NCBI GenBank assembly: GCA_026397315.1
Contig: JAPLVC010000007.1
Coordinates: 45,450 to 109,449, forward strand
Reading direction: 5' to 3'
From: Candidatus Aenigmatarchaeota archaeon
GTDB taxonomy: Archaea > Aenigmatarchaeota > Aenigmatarchaeia > QMZP01 > QMZT01
DNA: 64,000 bases
The position numbers and the translations under genes are program-made. Below are positions 1-64,000 of this stretch, in pieces. Numbering within the stretch: the first letter of the stretch is position 1; every line of letters starts with the position of its first letter. Under the pieces are notes generated by a model. It did no database searches and was not told where the DNA came from. It worked only from the letters and a program-made list of their open reading frames with translations.

Positions 1-528
1 ATAAAGGATTACATCCAGACATACTCGCCGGACAAGGAAGAACAGAAATGGATAAAGGCGATAATAATGACTGAAAGCGGTTATGTCCATTGCAGCGGTT
101 CGACCGTGGGGGCGTTCGGCTTCATGCAGCTCATGGAAATCGCCGCGAGGGACGTGGGCATAAGCGACAGGTTCGACCCTGAGCAGAACATCGATGGCGG
201 CGTGAGATACTACAGGAAGCTCGTGCAAAAATACGAATCCTACGACGACAAATACGTGCTGGCTGTCGCCAGTTACAACTGCGGCAAGATAGGCACTCTC
301 GTGTCGCAGAACTGCGACGCGCAGAACATATACATCGGCTGCTGGGAAAAGGCCGTCAGGGAGTTCACGCGTGAGAAGGAGTGCCAGGGCAGCGGCGGCA
401 AGGAAACTTACAACTACGTGGACAGGGTAAAGACATGCGTGAAATATTACGAGCAAAACCCGGAATGCTACAACAGTCCGGGCACGGGCAGCTCGTGCCC
501 TAAAAGCAGTGACTGCGGAAACTGGTGA
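1..528 (+). CDS. Lytic transglycosylase (SLT domain) protein, 5'-truncated by window edge
   Basis: SLT catalytic motif region (TESGY...S...GA.G.MQLM) in ORF 67..528; the reading frame is open back to nt 1, so the gene starts upstream of the window. Confidence 0.6.
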   Translation: MKDYIQTYSPDKEEQKWIKAIIMTESGYVHCSGSTVGAFGFMQLMEIAARDVGISDRFDPEQNIDGGVRYYRKLVQKYESYDDKYVLAVASYNCGKIGTLVSQNCDAQNIYIGCWEKAVREFTREKECQGSGGKETYNYVDRVKTCVKYYEQNPECYNSPGTGSSCPKSSDCGNW

Positions 529-531
529 AAT

Positions 532-1314
532 ATGCTTAAAAAAATGAAAGGCGGCATAAGTGAATCGCCATGGACAATCTGGGCAGTCATAATATTCGCG
601 GCCGTCATCGTCGCTGGTTCATTTTTCCTCAATTCGTATTATATCGATTACGCGGCATTTCTGAAAACTCCGCCGGAAAGGCTCAAAGCGCTTGAAGCAA
701 CCAACGCCGTGCGCGGGTGCCTGCTTAACGGGAAGCCTTACGTGACGAAGGACTTTCTCGACGAGAACAGCGGCGAGGACATAGACGACCTGTGCGGCTT
801 CGAGGACCCGGGTACAGAAGCCGACGTCCTTGACACGCAAACCGGCCAGAAGTGGGGTCTGAGCTCGAGTCTGAGCAAAGCGGACCACTCGGTCTGGATT
901 CCGATTGCTTACACAGGTTTTCAGGAAATAACCGATGTCAATTACGCTTTAAGCGGAGAATATGTCATACATGCGAAGTGGCTAGGCGTCGGGGTGCTTA
1001 ACATAAAAGCCAACGACGTCATTTTGGAATTATATCCTTCGGCGCTTTACCCGGGCGGATCAAGCAAGCTTGAAAGCGTCACCTCTTCCAAAGTCAGGGA
1101 ATGGATAGAAAAGCTGGTTGATGCTGACAACCCCGAAGGCACGCAGAAGGCGGACCTGACAGGCATGAACATAATGGCGATAATCCCGTCAGAATACAGT
1201 CTCAAAGAATGCAGTTCGGTTGGCGACCTGCTTTCCCACGAGGCCTGCGTGAAAATGTTTACGGGGGTAAAAGAAATTCATTTAGGGAGACTGAACGTCG
1301 ATGTTACGCTCTAA
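532..1314 (+). CDS. Hypothetical membrane-anchored protein (one N-terminal TM helix)
   Basis: 260-aa ORF tightly packed between the SLT and M23 genes; hydrophobic N-terminus (WTIWAVIIFAAVIVAGSFFL); no recognisable domain. Confidence 0.45.
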   Translation: MLKKMKGGISESPWTIWAVIIFAAVIVAGSFFLNSYYIDYAAFLKTPPERLKALEATNAVRGCLLNGKPYVTKDFLDENSGEDIDDLCGFEDPGTEADVLDTQTGQKWGLSSSLSKADHSVWIPIAYTGFQEITDVNYALSGEYVIHAKWLGVGVLNIKANDVILELYPSALYPGGSSKLESVTSSKVREWIEKLVDADNPEGTQKADLTGMNIMAIIPSEYSLKECSSVGDLLSHEACVKMFTGVKEIHLGRLNVDVTL

Positions 1315-2332
1315 AAATAAAAAGGGGATAGCGGACTTTGCGTTGTTCGTCGTGATAGCGATAGCGGTCGTATCGCTCATACTCGTTGCCAGCTGGCTGG
1401 GAAAGGTGCTTGGCCAGGGTAGGCAGCTAGTCAAAGTCAAGGGAGTGGTGGACGTTTACGTCAACCTTGACGACAAAGGCAGCGAGTTCAGCTTTCTGGA
1501 AGCCAAAAATGGCGATTATGATTTCATGGAAATTCTCGGCGTCGTGGGATCCGGAGCCAAGATAGGAGGCGACCTTAAAGCCCAGATGGAAAATGTGGAA
1601 AAAAGCATCGAAAGGATAAAGAATTCCGACAAGAAAAATTTCTACATATCCGTCATAAGCCCGGAGGGTAAAGTGGTGTATGAGAAGAAAAGCGGCAATC
1701 CGCCGCTCGTCGTGGGAACGGGCGGAGAGGACATACTGCTAAAATGGCCGCTGGACGCCAGCAACTATGAGATAATATCGGGTTTCGGGTGGAGAAAAGA
1801 CCCATTCTCAGGCAAGGACTCGTTCCACGGCGGTATAGACATACCGGGAAATCTGGGAGACCCCGTTTACAGCGCAACGGACGGAACCGTATACAGGACG
1901 GTAAACAATGATGCGGATTTGGGCAATTTTGTCGTTATAAAATACACATCACAAAGGACGAACACGCCGTATTACGTTTATTACGGACACATGCAGGGCT
2001 TTTCCGTAAGAACTGGTGACAGTGTGAAGATCGGAGAGGAGATAGGGAAAGTTGGCTCCACCGGCAAATCACAGGGCCCGCACCTGCATTTCGAGATAAG
2101 AAAAGACAAAAACGGCGACGGCAATTTAGCGCCAGACGCAGAGTCGGTAAACCTCTGCCCGTATCTCACAGGCGCGTCAGGCGGCATTGTCGACTCAAAA
2201 ACTTGCATGAAAAAATGCCCGGTATACGAGAATCCGGACTCATGCGATTCTGATATGACGGTCGTCACGAACAGGTTTGACATACCTGTTCCGGGCGGAA
2301 AGAAAGGCTACGTGGAGCTGATGCTATGGTAA
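1301..2332 (+). CDS. M23 family metallopeptidase (LytM-like), N-terminal TM anchor
   Basis: M23 motifs HGGIDI...D, YYGHM and GSTG...GPHLHFEI; overlaps the upstream gene by 14 nt and the downstream gene by 7 nt (operon). Confidence 0.75.
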   Translation: MLRSKNKKGIADFALFVVIAIAVVSLILVASWLGKVLGQGRQLVKVKGVVDVYVNLDDKGSEFSFLEAKNGDYDFMEILGVVGSGAKIGGDLKAQMENVEKSIERIKNSDKKNFYISVISPEGKVVYEKKSGNPPLVVGTGGEDILLKWPLDASNYEIISGFGWRKDPFSGKDSFHGGIDIPGNLGDPVYSATDGTVYRTVNNDADLGNFVVIKYTSQRTNTPYYVYYGHMQGFSVRTGDSVKIGEEIGKVGSTGKSQGPHLHFEIRKDKNGDGNLAPDAESVNLCPYLTGASGGIVDSKTCMKKCPVYENPDSCDSDMTVVTNRFDIPVPGGKKGYVELMLW

Positions 2333-3492
2333 AATTCAAGGGCATGACGATAAACATCCTCAGCGTAGGCCTGATAATACTCGTTTCCGTGATTCTTTAT
2401 GCGTTCCTCAACCCGCTATCGCAGCCGCATTCGTCTGAATACGCGAAAACGGATATCTATGTCATGAAAAACGCCCTAGATTCGTCCAAAGTCTATTTGA
2501 GGGCGTCTTTCGATTATGCTGTTTACCAGGCGCTTTACGACGTTTCGAGAAAGGGAGGGTTTAGCGACGCCCAAAGCCAGTCCGCATACGCTAACGCTCT
2601 GGCGCCTGTCATATCATGCCAGAAAACCGACAAAAGAATCGGTGAGCCGGAAAAGATAATCGGCTGCGTTCCCGGCGAATACGGATGCCCAGACAGCGAC
2701 GGCAAAGATGCTTACATAAACGAAGGTTACCAGGTAGGCCTCTTGCAATTCCTGCTAAAAGACCTTAAATACGAACTTACCGTTGACTGCAAGTTTGGCA
2801 AGGGCAGCCTGGAAAAACTCAAGGAATTCCAGAAAGACAAAGGCCTTACTGAAAGCGGTTTCCTTGACGACGCCACGACGGAGAAGCTGAAAGAATCCTT
2901 TGCTTACGATAACTGCGGGGATTATTTTTACGGATGCACGAACAGTTTTTCTGCCGTATGGAGCACGGAACTCGCAGAAGACCAGTTCAAAAGTAACATC
3001 AAGAATGAGATCGTAAAAAACATGAACTCATACACGTCAAAAGGATACGTCTTCCTCGACCTTCCAATAACAGGTCTTCCGCAATACAAAACCGACAAGA
3101 TTACGATTTCCGAATCCGGGACTGGATTGAAAGTCTCGCTCAGCGGGGATAACATAAAAATATCAAAGAAAGATGAATATGAAGTCATTGACATAGCGTC
3201 ATCGTCCGACATGGAAAAAATATACGATATAGATGCCTTCGGCATTTACAGGAAAGCAAAAAGCGTATACAACGACATTAAAAGCAAAGGATGCGATGCC
3301 GCAAAAGACGAAACGAAAACTGAAGGCGGATTTAAAACTGAAGTGAAGATCGTGAGCAAGACGACGAACCCTGAATGCTCCGCTAAAGTCAGGGTCTCGG
3401 TGGTGGAAGAAAATCCTAAAAAAGTTCCTGTCTTCAACGGACGTTCCGTATCTTTCGAGCCGGTTAACATGATTTTAATGTTGAATTTGTAA
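2326..3492 (+). CDS. Membrane-anchored protein with peptidoglycan-binding (PG_binding_1-like) domain
   Basis: N-terminal TM helix; the segment DCKFGKGSLEKLKEFQKDKGLTESGFLDDATTEKLKE fits the PGBD consensus (FG..T...v..FQ...GL..dG..g..T...L). Confidence 0.5.
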   Translation: MVKFKGMTINILSVGLIILVSVILYAFLNPLSQPHSSEYAKTDIYVMKNALDSSKVYLRASFDYAVYQALYDVSRKGGFSDAQSQSAYANALAPVISCQKTDKRIGEPEKIIGCVPGEYGCPDSDGKDAYINEGYQVGLLQFLLKDLKYELTVDCKFGKGSLEKLKEFQKDKGLTESGFLDDATTEKLKESFAYDNCGDYFYGCTNSFSAVWSTELAEDQFKSNIKNEIVKNMNSYTSKGYVFLDLPITGLPQYKTDKITISESGTGLKVSLSGDNIKISKKDEYEVIDIASSSDMEKIYDIDAFGIYRKAKSVYNDIKSKGCDAAKDETKTEGGFKTEVKIVSKTTNPECSAKVRVSVVEENPKKVPVFNGRSVSFEPVNMILMLNL

Positions 3493-14499: not shown

Positions 14500-15759
14500 G
14501 TGTTTTGCATGATTGATATACGTTTCCTCGGTGGTTGCAGGGAAGTAGGCAGGATGGGCATGCTCGTCGATACGGGAGCCGAAAAATTCCTGTGGGAATA
14601 CGGCATAAACGTGGAGAACTGGGGCAAGCCCATAAAGCCGGAGATAAACTTCGACGGAGTTTTCGTCTCGCACGCGCATCTAGACCACTCCGGGCTTCTG
14701 CCGCAGATATACAGGGAGGGATACGAGGGCATGCTCTACAGTGACCCTACGACCATCGACCTGCTATCGATACTGCTCCGCGACTCGCTGAAGATACAAA
14801 AGAGCGAATGCAACGACATCGATTTTTTCATGGAAGACATAAAGCACCTCGAGCGCAACGCATCGTTCCTGAAGGCAGGCGAGACGCAGGACTTCACGCT
14901 TTCCAACGTGAGCTTCCACAACGCCGGCCACATTCCCGGGAGCGTCACAACTCTTCTCGAGAGCCGTGGGAAGCGCGTCCTCTTCACGGGCGACATAAAG
15001 TTCCAGGGAACCCAGCTCATGAACGGCGCTGACACCAATTTCCAAAACATAGACGTGCTCATCTCGGAATCGACTTACTCCTACACGAACCATCCCGACA
15101 GGACCGTCATAGAGAACGGTCTTAGAAAAACGGTGCAGAGAACCATATACGGCGGCGGCGTGTGCCTGATACCGGCGTTCGCTGTTGGCAGGACGCAGGA
15201 GATACTGCTCAACCTTAGCGACCTCGGCGTCCCAATATATCTGGACGGCATGGGTGTGCGCGCGACTGAAGCGATACTGCGCCACGCGAAAAGCATCAAG
15301 GATTACAAAAAGCTGAGCAACGCGTTCTCGCGTGCCCACAAGGTGACGAGAGGCAGCGAACGCGACAGGATAATAGAAAAGCCGTGCGCCATCATCACGA
15401 CAGCAGGCATGCTCAACGGCGGCCCGATACTGAGCTACCTTTCGAAACTGCATGGCAGGGAGGACTGCTCGCTCGTCATGACCGGATACCAGGTGCCCGG
15501 CACGGGCGGAAGGAATCTCATGGAAACCGGCAGGTTCGTGAGCGGCGAAATCGACGTGAGGCCGAGGATGCGCATAGAGTTCCTTGACTTCTCGGCTCAC
15601 ACGGACCACGACCATCTCATAGAATTTTACAAAAAGGTGAGGCCGAAGAAAATCGTCCTCGTGCACGGCGAGAAGACCGAGGAGTTCGCGAAAGAGCTGA
15701 ACGGCATGGGCTTCAACGCGGTCGCGCCCAAGAACGGCGACACTCTCAGGATAGACTGA
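14500..15759 (+). CDS. Metallo-beta-lactamase / beta-CASP ribonuclease (aCPSF2-like)
   Basis: HAHLDHSG motif, beta-CASP architecture, 419 aa. Confidence 0.75.
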   Translation: MFCMIDIRFLGGCREVGRMGMLVDTGAEKFLWEYGINVENWGKPIKPEINFDGVFVSHAHLDHSGLLPQIYREGYEGMLYSDPTTIDLLSILLRDSLKIQKSECNDIDFFMEDIKHLERNASFLKAGETQDFTLSNVSFHNAGHIPGSVTTLLESRGKRVLFTGDIKFQGTQLMNGADTNFQNIDVLISESTYSYTNHPDRTVIENGLRKTVQRTIYGGGVCLIPAFAVGRTQEILLNLSDLGVPIYLDGMGVRATEAILRHAKSIKDYKKLSNAFSRAHKVTRGSERDRIIEKPCAIITTAGMLNGGPILSYLSKLHGREDCSLVMTGYQVPGTGGRNLMETGRFVSGEIDVRPRMRIEFLDFSAHTDHDHLIEFYKKVRPKKIVLVHGEKTEEFAKELNGMGFNAVAPKNGDTLRID

Positions 15760-15764
15760 TCACT

Positions 15765-16241
15765 TTACGAAGGATTCGGCACAATAAGTTCTTCAGAGCC
15801 GAATTGTTCTTCCCCAACAAGGAAATCGTGTGGGAAGTCTCCGCGTGAAATTTTTTTCATCAAATATTCTATGGCGCAGGTTGCATGGGCTTCTGCGAAA
15901 GGCGGGGATTGCATGTCCGGATATTTAATGTTTTTTAAAATGTTTTCGGCAATTTCCCTTTCGTGTTTTTTCACGAAGGGAATCAGTTTTTCCGCATTTT
16001 TCTTGTTGAAACCCAAATCATTTCTTACAGAAAATCCTTGAATCACTTTGACCGTGTGCTCCAAGAGTTTTGATATATAAACAGCGTCTGCCTCATTTTT
16101 AATCAATGGCAGTTCATTGCCTAGAACGAAAAAACTGTAAAAATCAGCGCAAGTGGGCGGGCCTGCATATGCCTTGTTCGAACAAAATGCTATCTTATAT
16201 TTTTCGTTCCATCGGCACAGTTTGCAATAATCTGATAGCAT
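15765..16241 (-). CDS. Hypothetical protein (158 aa)
   Basis: Convergent with the beta-CASP gene; no motif recognised. Confidence 0.4.
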   Translation of the reverse strand: MLSDYCKLCRWNEKYKIAFCSNKAYAGPPTCADFYSFFVLGNELPLIKNEADAVYISKLLEHTVKVIQGFSVRNDLGFNKKNAEKLIPFVKKHEREIAENILKNIKYPDMQSPPFAEAHATCAIEYLMKKISRGDFPHDFLVGEEQFGSEELIVPNPS

Positions 16242-16341
16242 AATTCATCACTTAGTTTACTGTGAAATAGATACGAAATTAACTTTAAATTGACATGGTT
16301 TTGCATCGGGCTATTTAATTTCGAGCGGGCCAATATTAAAC

Positions 16342-17385
16342 ATGATTGTAATTCCTGGTGAGTATGGCAGCGGGTCGGGAACGATAGTCAGGCTCGCAAC
16401 CGCATTTTCTGCGCTAACCGGAAAGCCGATAAAAATAACCGACATACGCGCGAAGCGTCCGAACCCGGGCCTGCGCCACCAGCATATCGAAGCGCTGAGG
16501 GCGATAGCGAAACTGAGCGGCGGAAAATTGAAAGGCGATGAAGTCGGCTCAAAGGAAATAGAGTTCACGCCAAAGAAAGTGAAGGGCGGAACTATTGACG
16601 TGGCGATAGAGACTGCCGGCTCCATAGGCCTGCTTGCTTATGCTGTCATGATTCCAGCTCTTTGCGCTTCCGGGAAAACGATTCTCAGGATAAAGGGCGG
16701 GTCCACCGCTAGTTTATGGGCGCCGCCGGTCTACTACATGGAAAACGTGCTGTTTCCGACGCTCGCGAAGATGGGAATCGACGCGAAATTCACCATAAAC
16801 ATGCATGGTTTTTTCCCCAAAGGCGGAGCAGACGTCGTGTTCGAGATAAGCCCCGCGAAGAAAGTCGCTCCCATAGTCATGAAGGAAGCCGGAGACGTCG
16901 AAACGATAACAGGCTTATCTATCGCATCGAATGACCTGAAATCCAGGAACGTAGCCGAACGGCAAATCGCCGGCTACCGCAGGATAATAAGGAAGGAGAA
17001 AGGCGTCGACATAAAACCGTTATACGTTAACGCCGCTTCGACCGGCTCGGCTTTCGTTGTCTGGGCCAAAACGACGACCGGATGCATTCTGTCGGGAGAC
17101 CACGTGGGCGAAGAGAAGAAGCCTGCCGAAGTCGCCGGAGAAGAAGCGGCATTCAAGCTGAAAGAAGAGATGGATTACAAATCGACCGTGGGCTTCCAGC
17201 TCGCGGACCAGCTCATTCCCTTCATGGCGCTCGCGTCCGGCAAATCAGAAATTCTCGTGCCGGAGCTTACGGATCACGTGAAGACGAACATATGGCTTTG
17301 CGAAAAGTTCCTCGGCTCGAAATTCGTCACCAAAGAGAACGGCGAGAATTTCAGGGTTTCCTGTTCCGGCCGCGCGTCAAAATAA
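16342..17385 (+). CDS. rtcA: RNA 3'-terminal phosphate cyclase
   Basis: N-terminus GEYGSGSGTIVRLATAFSALTGKPIKITDIRAKRPNPGLRHQHIEALRA matches the RtcA family. Confidence 0.8.
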   Translation: MIVIPGEYGSGSGTIVRLATAFSALTGKPIKITDIRAKRPNPGLRHQHIEALRAIAKLSGGKLKGDEVGSKEIEFTPKKVKGGTIDVAIETAGSIGLLAYAVMIPALCASGKTILRIKGGSTASLWAPPVYYMENVLFPTLAKMGIDAKFTINMHGFFPKGGADVVFEISPAKKVAPIVMKEAGDVETITGLSIASNDLKSRNVAERQIAGYRRIIRKEKGVDIKPLYVNAASTGSAFVVWAKTTTGCILSGDHVGEEKKPAEVAGEEAAFKLKEEMDYKSTVGFQLADQLIPFMALASGKSEILVPELTDHVKTNIWLCEKFLGSKFVTKENGENFRVSCSGRASK

Positions 17386-17959
17386 AAATAACCGCGGCTA
17401 GAGCTAGCGTCACGGTAAAGCTTTCTACGGCCAGAATGTTTTTGTATGTGTCAGGCACCCTGGTCAACGTGCCTAGGAAATAATCGAAAAAATTGTTCAC
17501 CAGCAATATCGCCATCACAATGAGCGCGTGTTTTATTTTCGGCCTCATTTGGGGGATGAGCGTCACGCCTTCGACGACCATGCCCAGGTGCAGGAAGACG
17601 TTGATTACGCCTATGAACGGGTCGAGCGGGTCCGGCGACGTGACGTAGCTTTTCCAGTAAAGCGCTATCGCCGCCACGGTCCAGAGGCCGTATTCGATGA
17701 GATACGCTCCGGCAAGGCATTTCAGGGATTCCGGCGCTTTACGACGGAAATAGAAAAGCGCGCACACTATCGCGATCATCAGCACCGAAAGCGGCGAATC
17801 TATGATGATTATCCAGAGCGACGGATTCGAATTCATGAGCTGCGGCCAGTAAAACCACAGACCGACGAAAAAGCCGAGGACGTTGGCGAACACGAGAAAT
17901 GCTAGCGCACGCTTGTCACTGAAGACTAACTCTGAAAAACGCGAAAGCTTCTGCATCAT
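17351..17959 (-). CDS. Hypothetical polytopic membrane protein
   Basis: 202 aa with 5-6 hydrophobic helices. Confidence 0.5.
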   Translation of the reverse strand: MMQKLSRFSELVFSDKRALAFLVFANVLGFFVGLWFYWPQLMNSNPSLWIIIIDSPLSVLMIAIVCALFYFRRKAPESLKCLAGAYLIEYGLWTVAAIALYWKSYVTSPDPLDPFIGVINVFLHLGMVVEGVTLIPQMRPKIKHALIVMAILLVNNFFDYFLGTLTRVPDTYKNILAVESFTVTLALAAVIFILTRGRNRKP

Positions 17960-18429
17960 GCCTTACCTATGTCCTTTATAGGGACGCCGCCGACCAGCGC
18001 GCCGGGTGGAACGCTCCTGTTGACCAGCGAGTATGCTGCAATCTTCGCATCGTCGCCTATTTCGACGCCCGCGAGAATCATGGTGAGCGAGCCGACAAGG
18101 ACGTTGCTGCCTATCTTTACCCGGCCTTTCTTGTACTGATTGTGGTGGAACTCGTGAGTGACTATGGTCGTGAAAGAGCCTATGGTGCAGTTGTCGCCTA
18201 TTTCTATCATCTCCGGGAAGAAAATGTCGAAATTCGTGCCGTATATGCGCACGTTCCTGCCTATCTTGATGCCGGCCTTCCTGTAGAGCCTGTTCTTGAG
18301 CCTGATGTCGGGCATGTACTTGCACGCGGTTATTATTATGAAGTTGCGGAGAACACGAACGGGATTGCGTATCTTGCCCCACTCGCTCAGCGACAATCCC
18401 TCTTCAGGGAAGCGGAAGCATGAAATCAT
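17956..18429 (-). CDS. Hexapeptide-repeat (left-handed beta-helix) acetyltransferase
   Basis: Repeats IGxxxxIGxxxxIG (IGRNVRIYG, IGDNCTIGS, IGSNVLVGS, IGDDAKIAA); start moved to the internal Met, giving a 4-nt overlap with the upstream gene. Confidence 0.7.
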   Translation of the reverse strand: MISCFRFPEEGLSLSEWGKIRNPVRVLRNFIIITACKYMPDIRLKNRLYRKAGIKIGRNVRIYGTNFDIFFPEMIEIGDNCTIGSFTTIVTHEFHHNQYKKGRVKIGSNVLVGSLTMILAGVEIGDDAKIAAYSLVNRSVPPGALVGGVPIKDIGKA

Positions 18430-18677
18430 TCTTTTCTTGTATTTGTCCTCTTCTGCCATAGTACTTTACCTTCCATGCGCACTTCAACAATCCTGTGGTT
18501 CGGTATGTGAGTCTCGCGGCCGTTATCTTTATAGTGGAAGTGCGACCTTTTTAATTCCGTCACGTTCGCGCCGGATACCGTCTTCACGTCGCCGGGCGCG
18601 CCCCTATGGACGAACGTTATTTCCGCCTTCGCGAGCGCGCCTGTCCACTTGAGCCTGTTGAGCGTCTCGAAGGCCAT
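18426..18677 (-). CDS. Small conserved archaeal protein (possibly UPF0248/DUF504-like)
   Basis: 83 aa, basic; family assignment is from memory only. Confidence 0.35.
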   Translation of the reverse strand: MAFETLNRLKWTGALAKAEITFVHRGAPGDVKTVSGANVTELKRSHFHYKDNGRETHIPNHRIVEVRMEGKVLWQKRTNTRKE

Positions 18678-18715
18678 GTTTATTTTTGTCCCGGGGAATT
18701 AAATCCTTGGGAGCG

Positions 18716-18841
18716 TCAGAACTCGAAATAAACGCTGAGAGCGTCGCTCTTGCCGCATCTCGGGCATGCGCTGGCGGGCTTGAAAACTATGCCGCACTTG
18801 TTGCACATCCTCTTCTCGACCAACGCTTTTTCCCGGCTCAT
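18716..18841 (-). CDS. Zn-ribbon mini-protein (41 aa, CxxC-x13-CxxC)
   Basis: Manual minus-strand translation MSREKALVEKRMCNKCGIVFKPASACPRCGKSDALSVYFEF; below the ORF-track cutoff; in an operon with flanking minus-strand genes. Confidence 0.45.
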   Translation of the reverse strand: MSREKALVEKRMCNKCGIVFKPASACPRCGKSDALSVYFEF

Positions 18842-18881
18842 GAAAACAATCCTTTATTTCTTTGCGCGCCGGCTTAAAAAA

Positions 18882-19595
18882 TCATTCCTCGTCTTTGATG
18901 ACTTTTATTGCGAGCGTGCCGAGGTCTATGGAAATTATTTTCGCGTTCCCCGGGTTGACGCACAGCGTGCGCCCTATCTTCTGCTTCATGCTTTTCGAAA
19001 CTCCCGGCGACTCGTGGATGTGGCCGTGCAGCGTCAGCATCGGCTGCGCGTCCTCGATGAACCTGCGTATAGCTTCGCTGCCTTTATGCTCGCCGTTGTG
19101 GAGCATGTCCAGCTTCGTCCCCAGCGGCGGCGCGTGGAAGACGAATATCATCTTTTCCATATCGAGCCTGGATGACATCGCCTTCAGCTCCGTGTATATT
19201 TCCTCTTCGGTTTTCTCCCAGTCTTTCAGCAGGAACGGCGTGGGATTTATGTAAGGATATCCTGCGATGGTCCATTCTTTATGTCTGTAAGACTTCCTGT
19301 GAAGCAGCATCGCCGTCCTGAGCTTGCCTGCCTTTTTCAATATTTTGAAATTCGCCTCGAAATCGTCGTTGCCCATCATGATGAAGACGGGCTTCTTGGC
19401 CTGCTTCTTGAATTCTTTCAGGCGCGGGGTCAGGTAGAACTGGAGGAAAAATGCCTGGCCGCTCGGGTTCACGCCGGAAGTGATGTCGCCGCCGAATACG
19501 ATGGCGTCTATATCGCTAGCTCTCGCAAGCTCGAACACGCGCTCGTATACCTTGACGATACCATGGACGTCCGTCACGTAGAGAATTTTCGTCAT
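18882..19595 (-). CDS. Calcineurin-like metallophosphoesterase
   Basis: MPP motifs DVHG, GGDITS, GNDDFE, HAPP, GHIHE. Confidence 0.7.
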   Translation of the reverse strand: MTKILYVTDVHGIVKVYERVFELARASDIDAIVFGGDITSGVNPSGQAFFLQFYLTPRLKEFKKQAKKPVFIMMGNDDFEANFKILKKAGKLRTAMLLHRKSYRHKEWTIAGYPYINPTPFLLKDWEKTEEEIYTELKAMSSRLDMEKMIFVFHAPPLGTKLDMLHNGEHKGSEAIRRFIEDAQPMLTLHGHIHESPGVSKSMKQKIGRTLCVNPGNAKIISIDLGTLAIKVIKDEE

Positions 19596-19617
19596 AGAAT
19601 CACAACTGAGATATTAG

Positions 19618-19728
19618 TGGACTCGTCGGGATTTGAACCCGAGGCCTCTTGGATGCGAACCAAGCGCTCTCTAGCGACTGAAGCAGGCGAACCTGCTTCC
19701 ATCGAAATTACCACTGAGCTACGAGCCC
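19618..19728 (-). tRNA. tRNA-Ala (anticodon CGC) with a 39-nt intron at a non-canonical position in the D-loop
   Basis: Minus-strand read: GGGCTCG-TA-GCTC-AGTGGTA-[intron ATTTCGATGGAAGCAGGTTCGCCTGCTTCAGTCGCTAGA]-GAGC-G-CTTGG-TTCGCAT-CCAAG-AGGCC-TCGGG-TTCAAAT-CCCGA-CGAGTCC-A. The G3:U70 Ala identity pair is present and there is no encoded CCA. The intron forms an 8-bp hairpin with a TTCG tetraloop. Confidence 0.75.
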
Positions 19729-19754
19729 GTGTCAAACATTATCTTATTATTCAG

Positions 19755-19763
19755 TATATATAA
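19755..19763 (-). promoter_or_regulatory. TATA box (TTATATATA on the minus strand) about 27-35 nt upstream of the tRNA-Ala 5' end
   Basis: A/T-rich box at canonical archaeal spacing; lies in the divergent intergenic region shared with the LigD_N-like gene. Confidence 0.5.
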
Positions 19764-19771
19764 CTTAAATT

Positions 19772-20137
19772 ATGCCCGTTTTCGTAGTCCACGAGCATAA
19801 CGCTTCGCGCCTCCACTGGGACCTCCGCCTGGAGATGGACGGCGTGCTGAAATCGTGGGCCGTTCCGAAGGAGCCGCCGTTGGAAGCGAATGTCAAACGC
19901 CTCGCGATACAGGTGGATGACCACGCTCTTTCTTATGGGAAATTCGAAGGTGTCATTAAAGAAGGGTATGGTGCCGGCACCGTGAAAATCTGGGATAATG
20001 GAACGTATGAAATCGTGGACAAGAAACCTGATAAAATCGTTTTCAAGATTAGCGGCAGGAAGATGCGCGGGGAATACGTCCTGCTGAAATTCAAAAAAGC
20101 CGACGAAAAGGAATGGCTGCTTTTCAGGAAAGAATGA
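19772..20137 (+). CDS. LigD N-terminal domain (3'-phosphoesterase-like) stand-alone protein
   Basis: ASRLHWDLRLEMDGVLKSWAVPKEP...DHALSYGKFEG...GYGAGTVKIWDNGTY matches the LigD_N domain consensus. Confidence 0.6.
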   Translation: MPVFVVHEHNASRLHWDLRLEMDGVLKSWAVPKEPPLEANVKRLAIQVDDHALSYGKFEGVIKEGYGAGTVKIWDNGTYEIVDKKPDKIVFKISGRKMRGEYVLLKFKKADEKEWLLFRKE

Positions 20138-20183
20138 CAAAGTTGGTAAATACTTTTTCTAAAAATATCTGTTTTTAAAAAAA

Positions 20184-20648
20184 TTGATTGACTACATGTT
20201 TAAACATAGGTTATTATTACTACAATTCCAGAAATCATTAATGACCAAGATAATTTATCTCGACACCAACATCTATCTAGATTATTATTTTGATAGACAT
20301 GGATCTAAAAGAGCATTTGATATAATATTTTTTCGAGCACCAAATTGTGAATTCAAAATAGTTGTTTCAGATTGGGTTCTGCGAGAACTTGAACTTAATG
20401 GAATTGGTTCAAAAGAAATGAAAACACTTTTCAGTAGAATTTCTGAAAATAAAAAATTGGTTACAATTTTTACAGAAAAACCAAAGGACATAGACGATGC
20501 GAAAAAAATATCATCGGATCATTTTCAAGATCCATTACATGTGATTCTCGCTAAGAAGGGTGGCGCTGAAATATTAATAACAAGAAATGTACAAGATTTC
20601 AACTGTTGTAGGCATCTTTTAGATATCAAGTTTCCTGAAGATATTTGA
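20184..20648 (+). CDS. PIN-domain-like putative nuclease
   Basis: N-terminal IIYLDTNI and C-terminal AEILITRNVQDF resemble PIN signatures; AT-rich. Confidence 0.45.
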   Translation: MIDYMFKHRLLLLQFQKSLMTKIIYLDTNIYLDYYFDRHGSKRAFDIIFFRAPNCEFKIVVSDWVLRELELNGIGSKEMKTLFSRISENKKLVTIFTEKPKDIDDAKKISSDHFQDPLHVILAKKGGAEILITRNVQDFNCCRHLLDIKFPEDI

Positions 20649-21791
20649 TGTATCTTCCTTCGCAAATTCTTCAGCTATTTTTCTTCTTTCATCTTTCGTA
20701 GTCTTCTTCTCTTCAATTATTTTCATCAAAGTCCTGTATTTTTCAAATTCTTTAAACTCAGTTTCTTTCAATTCATCAACTTTGCACAGATCTCTCAAAT
20801 AAGAAACGTATTCAATCGCTAACCTTTCATTTATTATGAAATAAATATCAAGATATGATTTGAGCGTGTTTTTGTCATAACCAATTTTTAAAAGACTTTC
20901 AAAAAGATTATATGTGGTTATCATATCCCACACAATTCGCATAGTGTCTAGTATTTCTGTCCTCAATTCGTTTATTTCATCAGATTTCATAGTTTTTAGC
21001 ATGTAAATTGTAGTTGAAATAAAATCATTCAATATCTTTGCAGCATTTTCAGTTTCCTCATTTAATTTAAAATTAAATCCAATCTCCATTAGAATATCTC
21101 TTATTTTCAATTTGTTTTCATCATTTAATTCAATAATACCAAAATTTTTCTCAAATTCAAACTGTCTGAGATAGAGTAAATTTTTAGATTTTATATATTG
21201 TCCCTTTCTCATATACACCGAATTGTGATCTTTTTCTTTCTCAACTATTCTATTTATGCATTCGTTTATCTCACTCTCATTTTTAACGGACGTGTAACTA
21301 TAATCCTTTGTTGGGTCATATAATTTTAAGCAAAGTTCACCGAACCTGTACCAAACTAATGGTACATCTAGATTACATTCCTGTACTATATCTACAAGTA
21401 ATTTTTGAACTTGTGTTTTGTTAGGATAATAAGTCGTCTTCTCTTTCCAAGTTTCTCTAATTTTCATAAAAAGGAAATTTACTAAATTATCTTGTTCCGA
21501 CTTAATCGGTATTCCGAAAAGCGTTCCTGAATTTTTTTCGGGAGAACTTGTGCAAGATTTCAAAGTGAAAACTCTTTTGTTTCCTTCTGCTCTCTCAACA
21601 GCGATTCCGGATTCTTCTAGCATCTCCAAATATTTGCGCACACTATCCCATGTCGTTCCGGTTTCGCCGGCAACTTCATAAATAGATTTGGGGCCTTTTT
21701 TCAGGGATTCGATGACAGATTGAACAACTTCGCGGCTGGTCTTCTTGGCACTACCCCTGCCAGTTGTCATGTTAATAATATTGGTAACCAT
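20619..21791 (-). CDS. Hypothetical 390-aa protein with N-terminal winged HTH and long helical C-terminal region
   Basis: wHTH segment KSIYEVAGETGTTWDSVRKYLEMLEESGIAVERAEGNKRVFTL; the remainder is K/E/I/N-rich with no known motif; convergent with the PIN-like gene, overlapping it by 30 nt. Confidence 0.45.
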   Translation of the reverse strand: MVTNIINMTTGRGSAKKTSREVVQSVIESLKKGPKSIYEVAGETGTTWDSVRKYLEMLEESGIAVERAEGNKRVFTLKSCTSSPEKNSGTLFGIPIKSEQDNLVNFLFMKIRETWKEKTTYYPNKTQVQKLLVDIVQECNLDVPLVWYRFGELCLKLYDPTKDYSYTSVKNESEINECINRIVEKEKDHNSVYMRKGQYIKSKNLLYLRQFEFEKNFGIIELNDENKLKIRDILMEIGFNFKLNEETENAAKILNDFISTTIYMLKTMKSDEINELRTEILDTMRIVWDMITTYNLFESLLKIGYDKNTLKSYLDIYFIINERLAIEYVSYLRDLCKVDELKETEFKEFEKYRTLMKIIEEKKTTKDERRKIAEEFAKEDTSNIFRKLDI

Positions 21792-21907
21792 ATTTAAATA
21801 TCACCATATCAGCATAGACTAATTTTAAATAAGTAGAATGAATAAAAGCTTTATATACTTAATTGCAAATACTATATAGTTATTTGAGTATAGTAATGGA
21901 GGTAAAA

Positions 21908-22180
21908 ATGAGAAGAATCGTTAAAAGAGTAGTGGATGGCGATACTTTGGAAGTTAATCGTAATATAAATGGGACTAGATTTGTAAGACTCGCCAATGTA
22001 AACGCACCCGAAAGGCATCAATTTGGTGGAAGAACAGCGACAAAAACATTAACCGGCCTTGTAGGCGGTAGATCGATAACACTAACTCCTGTAGCAAGGG
22101 ACGTTTATGGAAGAGTAGTCGCCGAAGTCAGATGTGGAAGACAAAGTATCAATCGTAAAATGAAGAAAAGAGGATATTAA
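21908..22180 (+). CDS. Short thermonuclease (SNase)-like protein
   Basis: VVDGDTLEV...VRLANVNAPE resembles the SNase catalytic core (DGDT...R...D.PE); GGAGGT RBS precedes the internal ATG of ORF 21863..22180. Confidence 0.5.
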   Translation: MRRIVKRVVDGDTLEVNRNINGTRFVRLANVNAPERHQFGGRTATKTLTGLVGGRSITLTPVARDVYGRVVAEVRCGRQSINRKMKKRGY

Positions 22181-22202
22181 AAATATATCAAGGGAGGAAA
22201 TC

Positions 22203-22355
22203 ATGATAAAAATAATCGCTATAGCAACAGGACTCGCAGCTGTACTTGGACTTGGTAGCATTCTTCTTTCAAGTCTAGGCAATAATACTTGGCCTGTATT
22301 TTTGTTTGCAGCAATATTTGTTTTTTTAATCGGTATACTCGTTAAAAAAATATAA
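22203..22355 (+). CDS. 50-aa membrane peptide (MIKIIAIATGLAAVLGLGSILLSSLGNNTWPVFLFAAIFVFLIGILVKKI)
   Basis: Manual translation; GGGAGGA RBS 6 nt upstream; two hydrophobic helices; below the ORF-track cutoff. Confidence 0.35.
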   Translation: MIKIIAIATGLAAVLGLGSILLSSLGNNTWPVFLFAAIFVFLIGILVKKI

Positions 22356-22440
22356 TAAGATAAAAAACACCCATTGAAAAACATTTTGTTAGATTTGATA
22401 ATTAAATCGTATTTTAACCAGAACGACAAAATATTTTCTT

Positions 22441-63655: not shown

Positions 63656-64000
63656 TAGATGAAAAAACTTTACAAGAATGGACCGAATTATATAATATCG
63701 GTTGGGGTTCATACAAAATTGCTAAGAAATATGGCATTTCTATTCCTACCGTGCAAAAATATTTAAGAAAAGTTGGTATATTTAATGGGATTAGGACGCG
63801 AGACGCACGTATCAAAAATTTTGATAGTATGGCCAAAGAGAAGAATTGTATTGTGATAAAAGGTGATATATCTGACAATGAAAAAAGATGTGATCTGAGA
63901 TTTTCTCTCGGAAATCTTGACGGGGTGAAAATTGTTCCCAGATTTGATAAAGGATTTAAAAAAGTCCTTTTAATACCCAACAAAAATGGCCGCAAACTAT
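63652..64000 (+). CDS. Hypothetical HTH-containing protein, AT-rich, 3'-truncated by window edge
   Basis: Manual translation MIDEKTLQEWTELYNIGWGSYKIAKKYGISIPTVQKYLRKVG...; ATGA overlap with the purE stop; not in the ORF track on this strand. Confidence 0.4.
   Translation, partial: MIDEKTLQEWTELYNIGWGSYKIAKKYGISIPTVQKYLRKVGIFNGIRTRDARIKNFDSMAKEKNCIVIKGDISDNEKRCDLRFSLGNLDGVKIVPRFDKGFKKVLLIPNKNGRKL

What the first reader, a model, noticed from the sequence alone, without database searches (positions are those of the whole stretch)
19618..19728. tRNA-Ala(CGC) with a 39-nt intron inside the D-loop (non-canonical position)
Removing 39 nt between the D-loop (AGTGGTA) and the 3' D-stem strand (GAGC) leaves a perfect 72-nt tRNA-Ala with the G3:U70 identity pair and anticodon CGC. 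D-loop introns are rare and confined to particular archaeal lineages. They require a BHB-tolerant splicing endonuclease and can serve as a taxonomic marker. The intron folds into an 8-bp hairpin with a TTCG tetraloop.
Basis: seen in the sequence. Interest (0 to 1): 0.6.

Follow-up and report, generated by a model that had tools for sequence, protein, structure and literature searches.

The report
Archaeal tRNA-Ala gene with D-loop intron
This is a real alanine tRNA gene of a tiny uncultured archaeon (Aenigmarchaeota), interrupted by a 39-base intron in its D-loop that has the textbook cutting signal for the archaeal splicing enzyme; this kind of intron is already known, but relatives show it being gained, lost and apparently moved within the same gene.

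Summary
Confirmed. On the minus strand, 19728..19618 encodes a 111-nt pre-tRNA-Ala(CGC). Removing 39 nt gives a perfect 72-nt cloverleaf with G3:U70 and A73. The exon-intron junctions form the only strict bulge-helix-bulge (hBHBh') motif in the precursor: D-stem, 4-bp helix AGUG:CGCU, 3-nt bulges GU|A and AG|A, and 3-bp helix AUU:AGU. Shuffled introns reach this motif in 0.4% of trials.

The window comes from a Candidatus Aenigmarchaeota MAG. Four relatives keep a 20/21 intron in the syntenic orthologous gene, with compensatory changes in the BHB helices. An intron-less orthologue with almost the same exons scores 69 bits as a full tRNA.

Position 20/21 is a published non-canonical intron site, and D-loop introns have been spliced in vitro, so this is a new member of a known kind. 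Splicing here is inferred, not shown.

The added value is comparative. Across 13 orthologous loci the gene has no intron, a D-loop intron, a T-loop intron, both, or an anticodon-loop plus a T-loop intron. The window's intron core also aligns gap-free with T-loop (59/60) introns of relatives, which suggests intron transposition. It is a poor taxonomic marker.

The parts
19618..19728 (-). Pre-tRNA-Ala(CGC) gene, 111 nt; no CCA encoded
   Evidence: Sequence. The spliced product folds as a perfect 72-nt tRNA-Ala. The intron-less orthologue L089, which differs at 4 positions, scores 69.3 bits full-length against Rfam tRNA.
19710..19728 (-). 5' exon: tRNA positions 1-20 (acceptor 5' strand, U8 A9, D-stem 5' strand GCUC, D-loop AGUGGU)
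   Evidence: BHB register p=19.
19671..19709 (-). 39-nt intron at tRNA position 20/21 (AAUUUCGAUGGAAGCAGGUUCGCCUGCUUCAGUCGCUAG)
   Evidence: The only register with a 4-bp central helix, two 3-nt bulges and both flanking helices. Homologous introns at the same site in L099, L096 and L064.
19618..19670 (-). 3' exon: tRNA positions 21-73 (A21, D-stem 3' strand GAGC, anticodon arm, variable loop, T arm, acceptor 3' strand, A73)
19712..19715 (-). BHB central helix, exon strand AGUG (tRNA 14-17)
   Evidence: Pairs with CGCU at 19676..19673. The U:G pair becomes U:A in L064.
19673..19676 (-). BHB central helix, intron strand CGCU
19709..19711 (-). 5' bulge G-U|A; predicted cleavage after the second bulge nucleotide (19710|19709)
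   Evidence: BHB geometry. The cleavage position within the bulge is taken from established knowledge of the BHB motif.
19670..19672 (-). 3' bulge A-G|A; predicted cleavage 19671|19670
   Evidence: BHB geometry.
19706..19708 (-). h' helix, 5' strand AUU; pairs with AGU at 19679..19677
   Evidence: All three pairs covary among the five sequences: AUU:AGU, ACU:AGU, AUU:AAU, CAA:UUG, CUU:AGG.
19677..19679 (-). h' helix, 3' strand AGU
19680..19699 (-). Intron core hairpin GAAGCAGG-UUCG-CCUGCUUC
   Evidence: Pair probabilities >=0.975. The same core is found in D-loop introns of L099 and L096 and in T-loop introns of L092, L088 and L094.
19655..19657 (-). Anticodon CGC
19756..19763 (-). TATA-like box TTATATAT, ending 28 nt upstream of the mature 5' end; probable archaeal promoter (inferred)
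   Evidence: Read from the sequence. The upstream region is nearly invariant in L064, L086, L087, L088, L089 and L099, and a TTTATATA box is present in all orthologous loci.

Best explanation
This is a functional tRNA-Ala(CGC) gene of a Candidatus Aenigmarchaeota (DPANN) archaeon, carrying one protein-spliced BHB intron of 39 nt at the non-canonical D-loop position 20/21.

Inferred pathway: the gene is transcribed from the TATA-box promoter about 30 nt upstream. In the precursor the D-stem (GCUC:GAGC) stacks on a 4-bp helix between D-loop nucleotides 14-17 (AGUG) and the 3' end of the intron (CGCU). That helix is flanked by two 3-nt bulges (GU|A and AG|A) and closed by a 3-bp intron helix (AUU:AGU) that carries the 8-bp UUCG hairpin.

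The archaeal splicing endonuclease EndA recognises this hBHBh' motif and cuts after the second nucleotide of each bulge. The tRNA ligase RtcB then joins U20 to A21, and probably circularises the intron. End trimming and CCA addition complete the 72-nt tRNA.

Shown here: the gene, the cloverleaf, the motif, its conservation and its covariation. Inferred: transcription, cleavage and ligation.
For: 1. The spliced product is a perfect cloverleaf with the Ala identity elements G3:U70 and A73. The intron-less orthologue L089 has the same exons apart from 4 positions, two of which are a compensatory pair, and scores 69.3 bits over the full Rfam tRNA model. The unspliced window gene scores only 29.3 bits, and only partially.

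2. The precursor has one strict BHB, in exactly the register that restores the tRNA. Shuffled introns achieve this in 0.4% of trials.

3. Orthologous genes sit at the same syntenic place, upstream of the metallophosphoesterase gene and in most relatives directly after the LigD_N gene. L099, L096 and L064/L086/L087 carry a 20/21 intron of 40-44 nt with the same geometry (L099 has 3 of the 4 central pairs; the others all 4). On the BHB columns 96.4% of cells are paired, against 29-49% when partners are slid. All three h' pairs change on both sides, and no shuffle in 500 reaches the observed covariation score.

4. The host is archaeal. The flanking protein is 100% identical to a Ca. Aenigmarchaeota MAG protein. 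The window also encodes GatD, Kae1, deoxyhypusine synthase and CDP-archaeol synthase.

5. Position 20/21 is listed among known archaeal non-canonical intron sites (PMC4090602). D-loop introns of M. kandleri tRNA-Glu (20b/21) and A. pernix tRNA-Thr have been cut in vitro by archaeal EndA (PMC5829648).
Against: - There is no RNA evidence of splicing.
- ViennaRNA's minimum-energy fold of the isolated precursor (-49.0 kcal/mol) prefers an extended intron hairpin (CGAU:GUCG) over the BHB model (-40.6). It gives the BHB central pairs a probability below 0.01.
- That rival extension is not conserved in L096, and nearest-neighbour models penalise 3-nt bulges that the enzyme stabilises.
- In L099 one central-helix pair is a G.G mismatch.
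- No EndA or RtcB gene was found among the 30 window ORFs scanned, so the enzymes are assumed to lie elsewhere in the genome.
- The covariation alignment was built by me on the BHB register and has only 5 sequences.
Confidence: 0.9

Rival explanations
1. The intron is not only a passive interruption. Its core (CG..GAAGCAGR-loop-YCUGCUUC..GU) is a mobile or duplicating element that has moved between the D-loop (20/21) and the T-loop (59/60) of the tRNA-Ala(CGC) gene within Aenigmarchaeota. After each move, only the few terminal bases that must pair with the local exon were re-fitted. This complements the best explanation rather than replacing it.
For: - D-loop introns (window, L099, L096) and T-loop introns (L092, L088, L094) of orthologous genes align without gaps over a core of about 27 nt, with 17 invariant columns. 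They differ at the 3' end: CGCU pairs with D-loop AGUG, and UGAA pairs with T-loop UUCA.
- Local alignment scores are 20-35 for 8 of the 9 D-loop/T-loop pairs (the window against L088 and L094 scores only 11 and 13). The background of 280 comparisons with introns from other phyla has mean 10.2, sd 2.6 and maximum 18.
- Using the 5' halves only, so that hairpin arms are not counted twice, 3-22 of 20,000 shuffles reach the best scores.
- L099 D-loop and L088 T-loop hairpins share 19 of 21 nt including the loop, and the two differences form a compensatory pair.
- Intron states are patchy on a flanking-gene tree.
- The same hairpin occurs once outside any tRNA, in L092.
- Intron transposition has been proposed for Thermoproteales (Fujishima 2010, as cited in PMC4033280 and PMC4090602).
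Against: - The similarity rests mainly on one short hairpin, and about nine pairs were tested.
- Convergence on a stable or protein-bound hairpin is not excluded.
- Only the tRNA-Ala(CGC) locus was sampled, so spread to other tRNA genes is untested.
- The tree is a single-gene neighbour-joining tree.
- No mechanism is known.
Confidence: 0.5
2. The gene is a tRNA pseudogene, inactivated by a 39-nt insertion and not spliced.
For: Standard gene finders do not recognise it as a complete tRNA. No RNA data are available. The CGC isoacceptor could in principle be dispensable if a UGC isoacceptor reads GCG.
Against: - The exons carry no defect of any kind.
- They are 100% identical to those of relatives whose four-fold degenerate sites are only 68% identical to the window's.
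- The insertion sits in a strict BHB, whose chance expectation is 0.4%.
- The BHB is maintained by compensatory changes in relatives.
- The promoter region is conserved.
Confidence: 0.04
3. ARAGORN's call is right: an intron-less 75-nt tRNA-Ala at 19619..19693, whose 5' half lies in what is here called the intron.
For: ARAGORN reports it with and without its intron option.
Against: - That model has G.U/U.G and unpaired positions in the acceptor stem.
- It has U3:G70 instead of G3:U70, a 3-bp D-stem, no GG in the D-loop and no U8.
- Its 5' half is not conserved in L064, whereas the upstream 19-nt exon is identical in all close relatives.
- Intron-less orthologues use the upstream exon.
Confidence: 0.01
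4. The insertion is an assembly or chimera artefact.
For: The window comes from a metagenome-assembled genome.
Against: The same intron type, 80-85% identical, sits at the same site in independent assemblies from other samples (L099, L096). A different intron sits at the same site in three further assemblies: L064, L086 and L087.
Confidence: 0.01

Closest known systems
[quoted passage not shown]
   Same: The intron is short and lies in the D-loop. It is bounded by a bulge-helix-bulge motif in which D-loop nucleotides pair with the 3' end of the intron, and removing it restores a standard cloverleaf.
   Different: The motif here is a strict hBHBh', because the 7-nt D-loop puts the central helix directly on the D-stem. 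The M. kandleri example is a relaxed HBh'. The host is an Aenigmarchaeota (DPANN) MAG rather than a cultured Cren- or Euryarchaeote. Nothing here has been tested biochemically.
tRNA intron transposition and rapid intron gain in Thermoproteales (Fujishima et al. 2010; Sugahara et al. 2008; as summarised in PMC4033280 and PMC4090602)
   Same: Similar intron sequences are found at different tRNA positions, and closely related genomes differ in intron content.
   Different: Here the related introns sit at two positions (20/21 and 59/60) of orthologous copies of one gene in a DPANN clade, and only one locus was sampled. The Thermoproteales case concerns many different tRNA genes within genomes.
Intron presence/absence heterogeneity in Caldiarchaeum subterraneum populations (PMC3293823)
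   Same: tRNA gene disruption varies among close relatives in nature.
   Different: The lineage is different. I read only the title and abstract of that paper, so the comparison goes no further than this.
Canonical archaeal tRNA intron at 37/38
   Same: The same BHB signal, and presumably the same EndA/RtcB machinery.
   Different: The position differs. One relative, L094, has an anticodon-loop intron in the orthologous gene, but the window gene does not.

Membership tests
Archaeal endonuclease-spliced (BHB) tRNA intron | Removing the insert restores a complete, canonical tRNA. | tested here: met
   The product is a 72-nt cloverleaf with all stems perfect, G3:U70 and A73. A near-identical intron-less orthologue scores 69.3 bits against Rfam tRNA.
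Archaeal endonuclease-spliced (BHB) tRNA intron | Two 3-nt bulges separated by a 4-bp helix at the exon-intron junctions, with the splice sites at symmetric positions in the bulges. | tested here: met
   H=4, h=4, h'=3 at p=19/q=59, which is unique in the precursor; 844 of 200,000 shuffles reach this. The motif is conserved with covariation in relatives. Thermodynamic folding alone does not predict it.
Archaeal endonuclease-spliced (BHB) tRNA intron | The host is an archaeon (or eukaryote) that encodes the splicing endonuclease EndA and the ligase RtcB. | tested here: inconclusive
   The archaeal (Aenigmarchaeota) origin is shown. No EndA or RtcB was found among 30 window ORFs, and the rest of the genome was not available.
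Archaeal endonuclease-spliced (BHB) tRNA intron | The intron is excised and the exons are ligated in vivo or in vitro. | not testable with these tools
   No transcriptome or biochemistry is available.
Non-canonical intron at position 20/21 | The splice junction lies between tRNA nucleotides 20 and 21 of the D-loop. | tested here: met
   Exon 1 ends at U20 (AGUGGU) and exon 2 begins at A21. The position is listed as known in PMC4090602.
Self-splicing group I / group II intron in a tRNA gene | A catalytic RNA core of hundreds of nucleotides; in tRNA genes these introns sit in the anticodon loop. | tested here: not met
   The insert is 39 nt and lies in the D-loop. No Rfam intron family matches even at E<=1.
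Split or permuted tRNA gene | The tRNA halves are encoded at separate loci or in reversed order. | tested here: not met
   Both exons are contiguous and colinear within 111 nt.

The most novel reading that the evidence does not exclude
The intron core is a small mobile RNA or DNA element. In Aenigmarchaeota it has transposed between the D-loop (20/21) and the T-loop (59/60) of the tRNA-Ala(CGC) gene. The hairpin core was kept, and only the 4-nt strand that pairs with the local exon was re-targeted. I found no report of this outside Thermoproteales in a limited literature search. The orthologous series (no intron, D-loop only, T-loop only, both, anticodon-loop plus T-loop) would provide the 'snapshots of intron insertion' that reviewers of the field have asked for (PMC4033280).
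Probability: 0.45. Interest if true: 0.55.

Novelty: new member of a known kind. Interest (0 to 1): 0.35.

Why it matters
For annotation: this tRNA is mis-called by ARAGORN and barely reaches the Rfam threshold, and the orthologue in L064 is missed altogether. DPANN genomes annotated with standard tools will therefore seem to lack, or to have a defective, tRNA-Ala(CGC).

For biology: the intron itself is ordinary. The orthologous locus in related Aenigmarchaeota, however, is a compact natural series of intron gain, loss and probable relocation. One conserved hairpin core appears at two different tRNA positions. That makes the unsolved question of how BHB introns spread directly addressable by comparative genomics and simple in vitro assays.

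The data also show that a D-loop intron is not a dependable taxonomic marker.

Tried and rejected
- **ARAGORN intron options.** Running with -i, and with -i0,60 -io, on the locus only repeats the wrong 75-nt call. ARAGORN looks for introns in the anticodon loop only.
- **Rfam at E<=1 over the whole window.** This found no further or hidden tRNA fragments, only one weak sR2 C/D-box hit.
- **Thermodynamic folding as a BHB test.** The MFE structure prefers an extended intron hairpin. I set this aside as evidence against the BHB because the extension is not conserved in L096 and the BHB pairs covary.
- **'The close relative L064 carries an unrelated, replaced intron'.** The two introns are no more alike than shuffles (22 matches against 21.3 +/- 2.0). 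But four-fold sites are only 59-68% identical, so near-neutral drift cannot be excluded on identity alone. L064's intron also shares a 12-nt run (TACGAAAGAAGC) with L092's T-loop intron (score 24). I therefore do not claim replacement.
- **'L099's tRNA cassette was horizontally transferred because its promoter equals the window's'.** L095 and L100 have similar promoters and the single-gene tree is weak, so this was not pursued.
- **Bacterial hits of the genome scan.** These are truncated tRNA fragments followed by a full tRNA, not introns.
- **Search for EndA/RtcB in the window.** None was found among 30 ORFs.
- **The metagenome scan.** The exon-specific pattern returned only two contigs, both of the L064 type.

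Full report
**1. What is in the sequence**

The finding lies on the minus strand. Read 5'->3' from 19728 to 19618, the 111 nt are:

GGGCUCG UA GCUC AGUGGU | AAUUUCGAUGGAAGCAGGUUCGCCUGCUUCAGUCGCUAG | A GAGC G CUUGG UUCGCAU CCAAG AGGCC UCGGG UUCAAAU CCCGA CGAGUCC A

- With the 39 nt removed, ARAGORN folds the remaining 72 nt as tRNA-Ala(cgc). It has 7-, 4-, 5- and 5-bp stems without a mismatch, G3:U70 and A73.
- On the genomic sequence ARAGORN calls a different 75-nt gene (19619..19693). That call has a defective acceptor stem, U3:G70 and a 3-bp D-stem, and the intron option does not help.
- Rfam's tRNA model matches only positions 7-64, at 29.3 bits against a threshold of 29.
- A relaxed Rfam scan of the whole window finds no other tRNA.

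**2. The splicing signal**

Archaeal tRNA introns are defined by a bulge-helix-bulge motif: two 3-nt bulges on opposite strands, separated by a 4-bp helix. Cleavage falls after the second nucleotide of each bulge; that detail is established knowledge rather than a result here (reviews PMC4090602, PMC6379350).

I scanned every possible pair of junctions in the precursor. Exactly one gives a strict motif:

| Element | Sequence |
|---|---|
| h (D-stem) | GCUC:GAGC |
| H (central helix) | AGUG (tRNA 14-17) : CGCU (intron 3' end) |
| Bulges | G-U\|A and A-G\|A |
| h' | AUU:AGU, followed by a 6-nt bulge and the UUCG hairpin |

- This register is one of the three that restore the same tRNA. It places the intron at 19709..19671, between U20 and A21.
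- Of 200,000 shuffled introns, 844 (0.4%) give H=4 and h'>=3 in a product-preserving register.
- ViennaRNA on the naked precursor prefers a different local fold: an extended hairpin at -49.0 kcal/mol against -40.6 for the BHB model. I weigh this lightly. The extra pairs are not conserved in relatives, and the motif is one that the enzyme binds.

**3. Where the window comes from**

- The adjacent metallophosphoesterase (18882..19595, minus strand) is 100% identical to a protein of a Candidatus Aenigmarchaeota MAG on a 166-kb contig. Its next relatives are also Aenigmarchaeota/Aenigmatarchaeota.
- Other window genes fit a DPANN archaeon: GatD, Kae1, deoxyhypusine synthase, a CDP-archaeol synthase-like protein and murein-lytic domains.
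- No EndA or RtcB was found among the 30 ORFs scanned.

**4. Orthologues**

The tRNA gene lies just upstream of the metallophosphoesterase gene in all relatives examined, and in most of them directly downstream of a LigD_N phosphoesterase gene. The intergenic sequences, parsed, give the following. Percentages are metallophosphoesterase amino-acid identity to the window.

| Locus | Identity | Introns |
|---|---|---|
| window | - | D-loop 39 nt |
| L064/L086/L087 | 87-89% | D-loop 44 nt |
| L099 | 65% | D-loop 40 nt |
| L096 | 62% | D-loop 40 nt + T-loop 49 nt |
| L090 | 66% | D-loop 60 nt (19/20) + T-loop 106 nt |
| L097 | 61% | D-loop 30 nt (19/20) + T-loop 22 nt |
| L088 | 77% | T-loop 38 nt only |
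| L092 | 65% | T-loop 38 nt only |
| L095, L100 | 64-65% | T-loop 47 nt only |
| L094 | 64% | anticodon-loop + T-loop 38 nt |
| L089 | 75% | none |
| L098 | 65% | none |

- L089's intron-less gene differs from the window's spliced product at four positions, two of which are a compensatory pair. It scores 69.3 bits over the full Rfam model, and L098 scores 65.9.
- The L064-type contigs are 82-92% identical to the window in the flanking genes, with four-fold sites 68% identical. The exons are 100% identical, and the promoter and downstream spacer are identical but for one or two bases.

**5. Comparative support for the BHB**

The four Aenigmarchaeota 20/21 introns and one Woesearchaeota example with the same 7-nt D-loop (L059) all fit the same geometry. 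I built length-matched constructs of the BHB columns and counted pairs on them.

- 96.4% of cells are paired, against 29-49% when partners are slid by 1-3 columns.
- All three h' pairs show changes on both sides (A-U/C-G; U-G/U-A/C-G/A-U; U-A/A-U).
- The U16:G pair of the central helix becomes U:A in L064 and L059.
- No shuffle in 500 reaches the observed covariation score.
- Caveats: there are only five sequences, the register was chosen by me, L099 has one G.G mismatch in H, and L059 has one mismatch.

**6. How common this is**

A pattern scan of one genome per species for tRNA-Ala with an 18-48-nt insert after G18-G19 returned 85 stretches. About 37 are archaeal D-loop inserts. They come from Woesearchaeota/Nanoarchaeia, Aenigmatarchaeota, Jord-/Freyarchaeia, Thermoproteati/Marsarchaeota, Nitrososphaeria and a Methanosarcinales MAG, and most have a 4-bp central helix.

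The bacterial hits are truncated tRNA fragments in front of a full gene.

The literature already covers this kind of intron:
- 20/21 and 59/60 are listed among known non-canonical positions (PMC4090602).
- In vitro cleavage of D-loop introns is documented (PMC5829648, PMC3241643).
- DPANN lineages are noted to have many disrupted tRNA genes (PMC5829648).

The finding is therefore a new member of a known kind.

**7. The unexpected part**

The window's intron is clearly homologous to the D-loop introns of the more distant L099 and L096 (local scores 51 and 32). It is barely alignable to that of its closest relative L064 (score 11).

The D-loop family also resembles the T-loop (59/60) introns of L092, L088 and L094.
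- Scores are 20-35 for 8 of the 9 D-loop/T-loop pairs, against a background of 10.2 +/- 2.6 (maximum 18, n=280) with introns of other phyla. For the window's own intron only the L092 comparison (23) exceeds the background; against L088 and L094 it scores 11 and 13.
- The six introns align gap-free over the core, with 17 invariant columns.
- L099 (D-loop) and L088 (T-loop) share 19 of 21 hairpin nucleotides, including the loop, and the two differences are a compensatory pair.
- The alignment breaks down exactly where the intron must pair with its exon: CGCU opposite AGUG in the D-loop, and UGAA opposite UUCA in the T-loop.
- Tests on the 5' halves alone give 3-22 of 20,000 shuffles for the best pairs.
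- A single-gene tree shows both intron types scattered.
- The same hairpin occurs once outside a tRNA, in L092/L093 (about 0.04 expected by chance).

I read this as probable intron transposition or duplication, of the kind proposed for Thermoproteales (PMC4033280). I hold it at about even odds, because it rests on one short hairpin at one locus.

**8. Verdict**

Three corrections apply:
- The gene is on the minus strand.
- The splice register is 19709..19671.
- The motif is strict, so no special endonuclease tolerance is implied for this intron. The relatives' T-loop introns, which have no or only one h' pair adjacent to the central helix, may need it.

The intron is polymorphic within the clade and widespread across archaeal phyla, so it is a weak taxonomic marker. 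Splicing, the enzymes and any mobility remain inferred.

Noticed in passing
window 20138..22404: A 2.27-kb segment is absent from the close relatives L064, L086 and L087, where the LigD_N and CarS-like genes are about 14 nt apart. It carries a PIN-domain ORF (20184-20648 +), a 390-aa ORF with a weak DUF7342 match (20619-21791 -) and a staphylococcal-nuclease-like ORF (21863-22180 +). More distant relatives have an unrelated 307-aa ORF at the same spot. This is a variable hot spot about 400 nt from the tRNA gene, possibly a small mobile or defence islet.
   Followed up: partly
window 14500..20137: The tRNA gene sits in a neighbourhood rich in RNA-end enzymes, conserved in relatives whether or not the tRNA has introns. 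It comprises a beta-CASP RNase (14500-15759), RNA 3'-phosphate cyclase RtcA (16342-17385), an MJ1316-domain protein (18426-18677), a metallophosphoesterase (18882-19595) and a LigD_N 3'-phosphoesterase (19772-20137). The domain names come from orthologous loci. No link to the intron is shown.
   Followed up: partly
L092 1514..1534 (same in L093): The intron core hairpin (GACGCAGG-UUUCA-CCUGCGUC) occurs once outside any tRNA gene, just 3' of a 307-aa ORF. About 0.04 such matches are expected by chance in the 1.45 Mb (both strands) searched. It could be a terminator or a mobile palindromic element related to the introns.
   Followed up: no
L088, L092, L094, L095, L096, L097, L090, L100 (tRNA-Ala T-loop): T-loop introns at 59/60 of 22-106 nt have a 4-bp central helix (3 in L097) on the T-stem. 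Apart from L097 they have no, or only one, adjacent h' pair, so the motif is relaxed. There are at least two sequence families: L088/L094/L092 and L095/L100/L096. L094 also has a long anticodon-loop intron.
   Followed up: partly
L008, L020, L033, L039, L040, L045, L047, L055, L056, L058, L059, L062, L073 (genome scan hits): Many Woesearchaeota/Nanoarchaeia tRNA-Ala genes with a D-loop insert also diverge right after GGGUUCRAA. This suggests a second intron in the T-loop, as in the Aenigmarchaeota relatives.
   Followed up: no
L046 (contig labelled Coxiellaceae bacterium): It carries an archaeal-type tRNA-Ala with a D-loop BHB intron (H=4, h'=6). The contig is probably mis-binned.
   Followed up: no
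window 63849..63900 (+): A weak match to the archaeal C/D-box sRNA family sR2, at 24.8 bits against a threshold of 42 (E=0.24). This is probably chance.
   Followed up: no
window 67..3492: A cluster of murein-directed domains in an archaeon: SLT transglycosylase, M23 peptidase and a peptidoglycan-binding domain. This may reflect a DPANN lifestyle that involves a bacterial cell wall, or horizontal acquisition.
   Followed up: no
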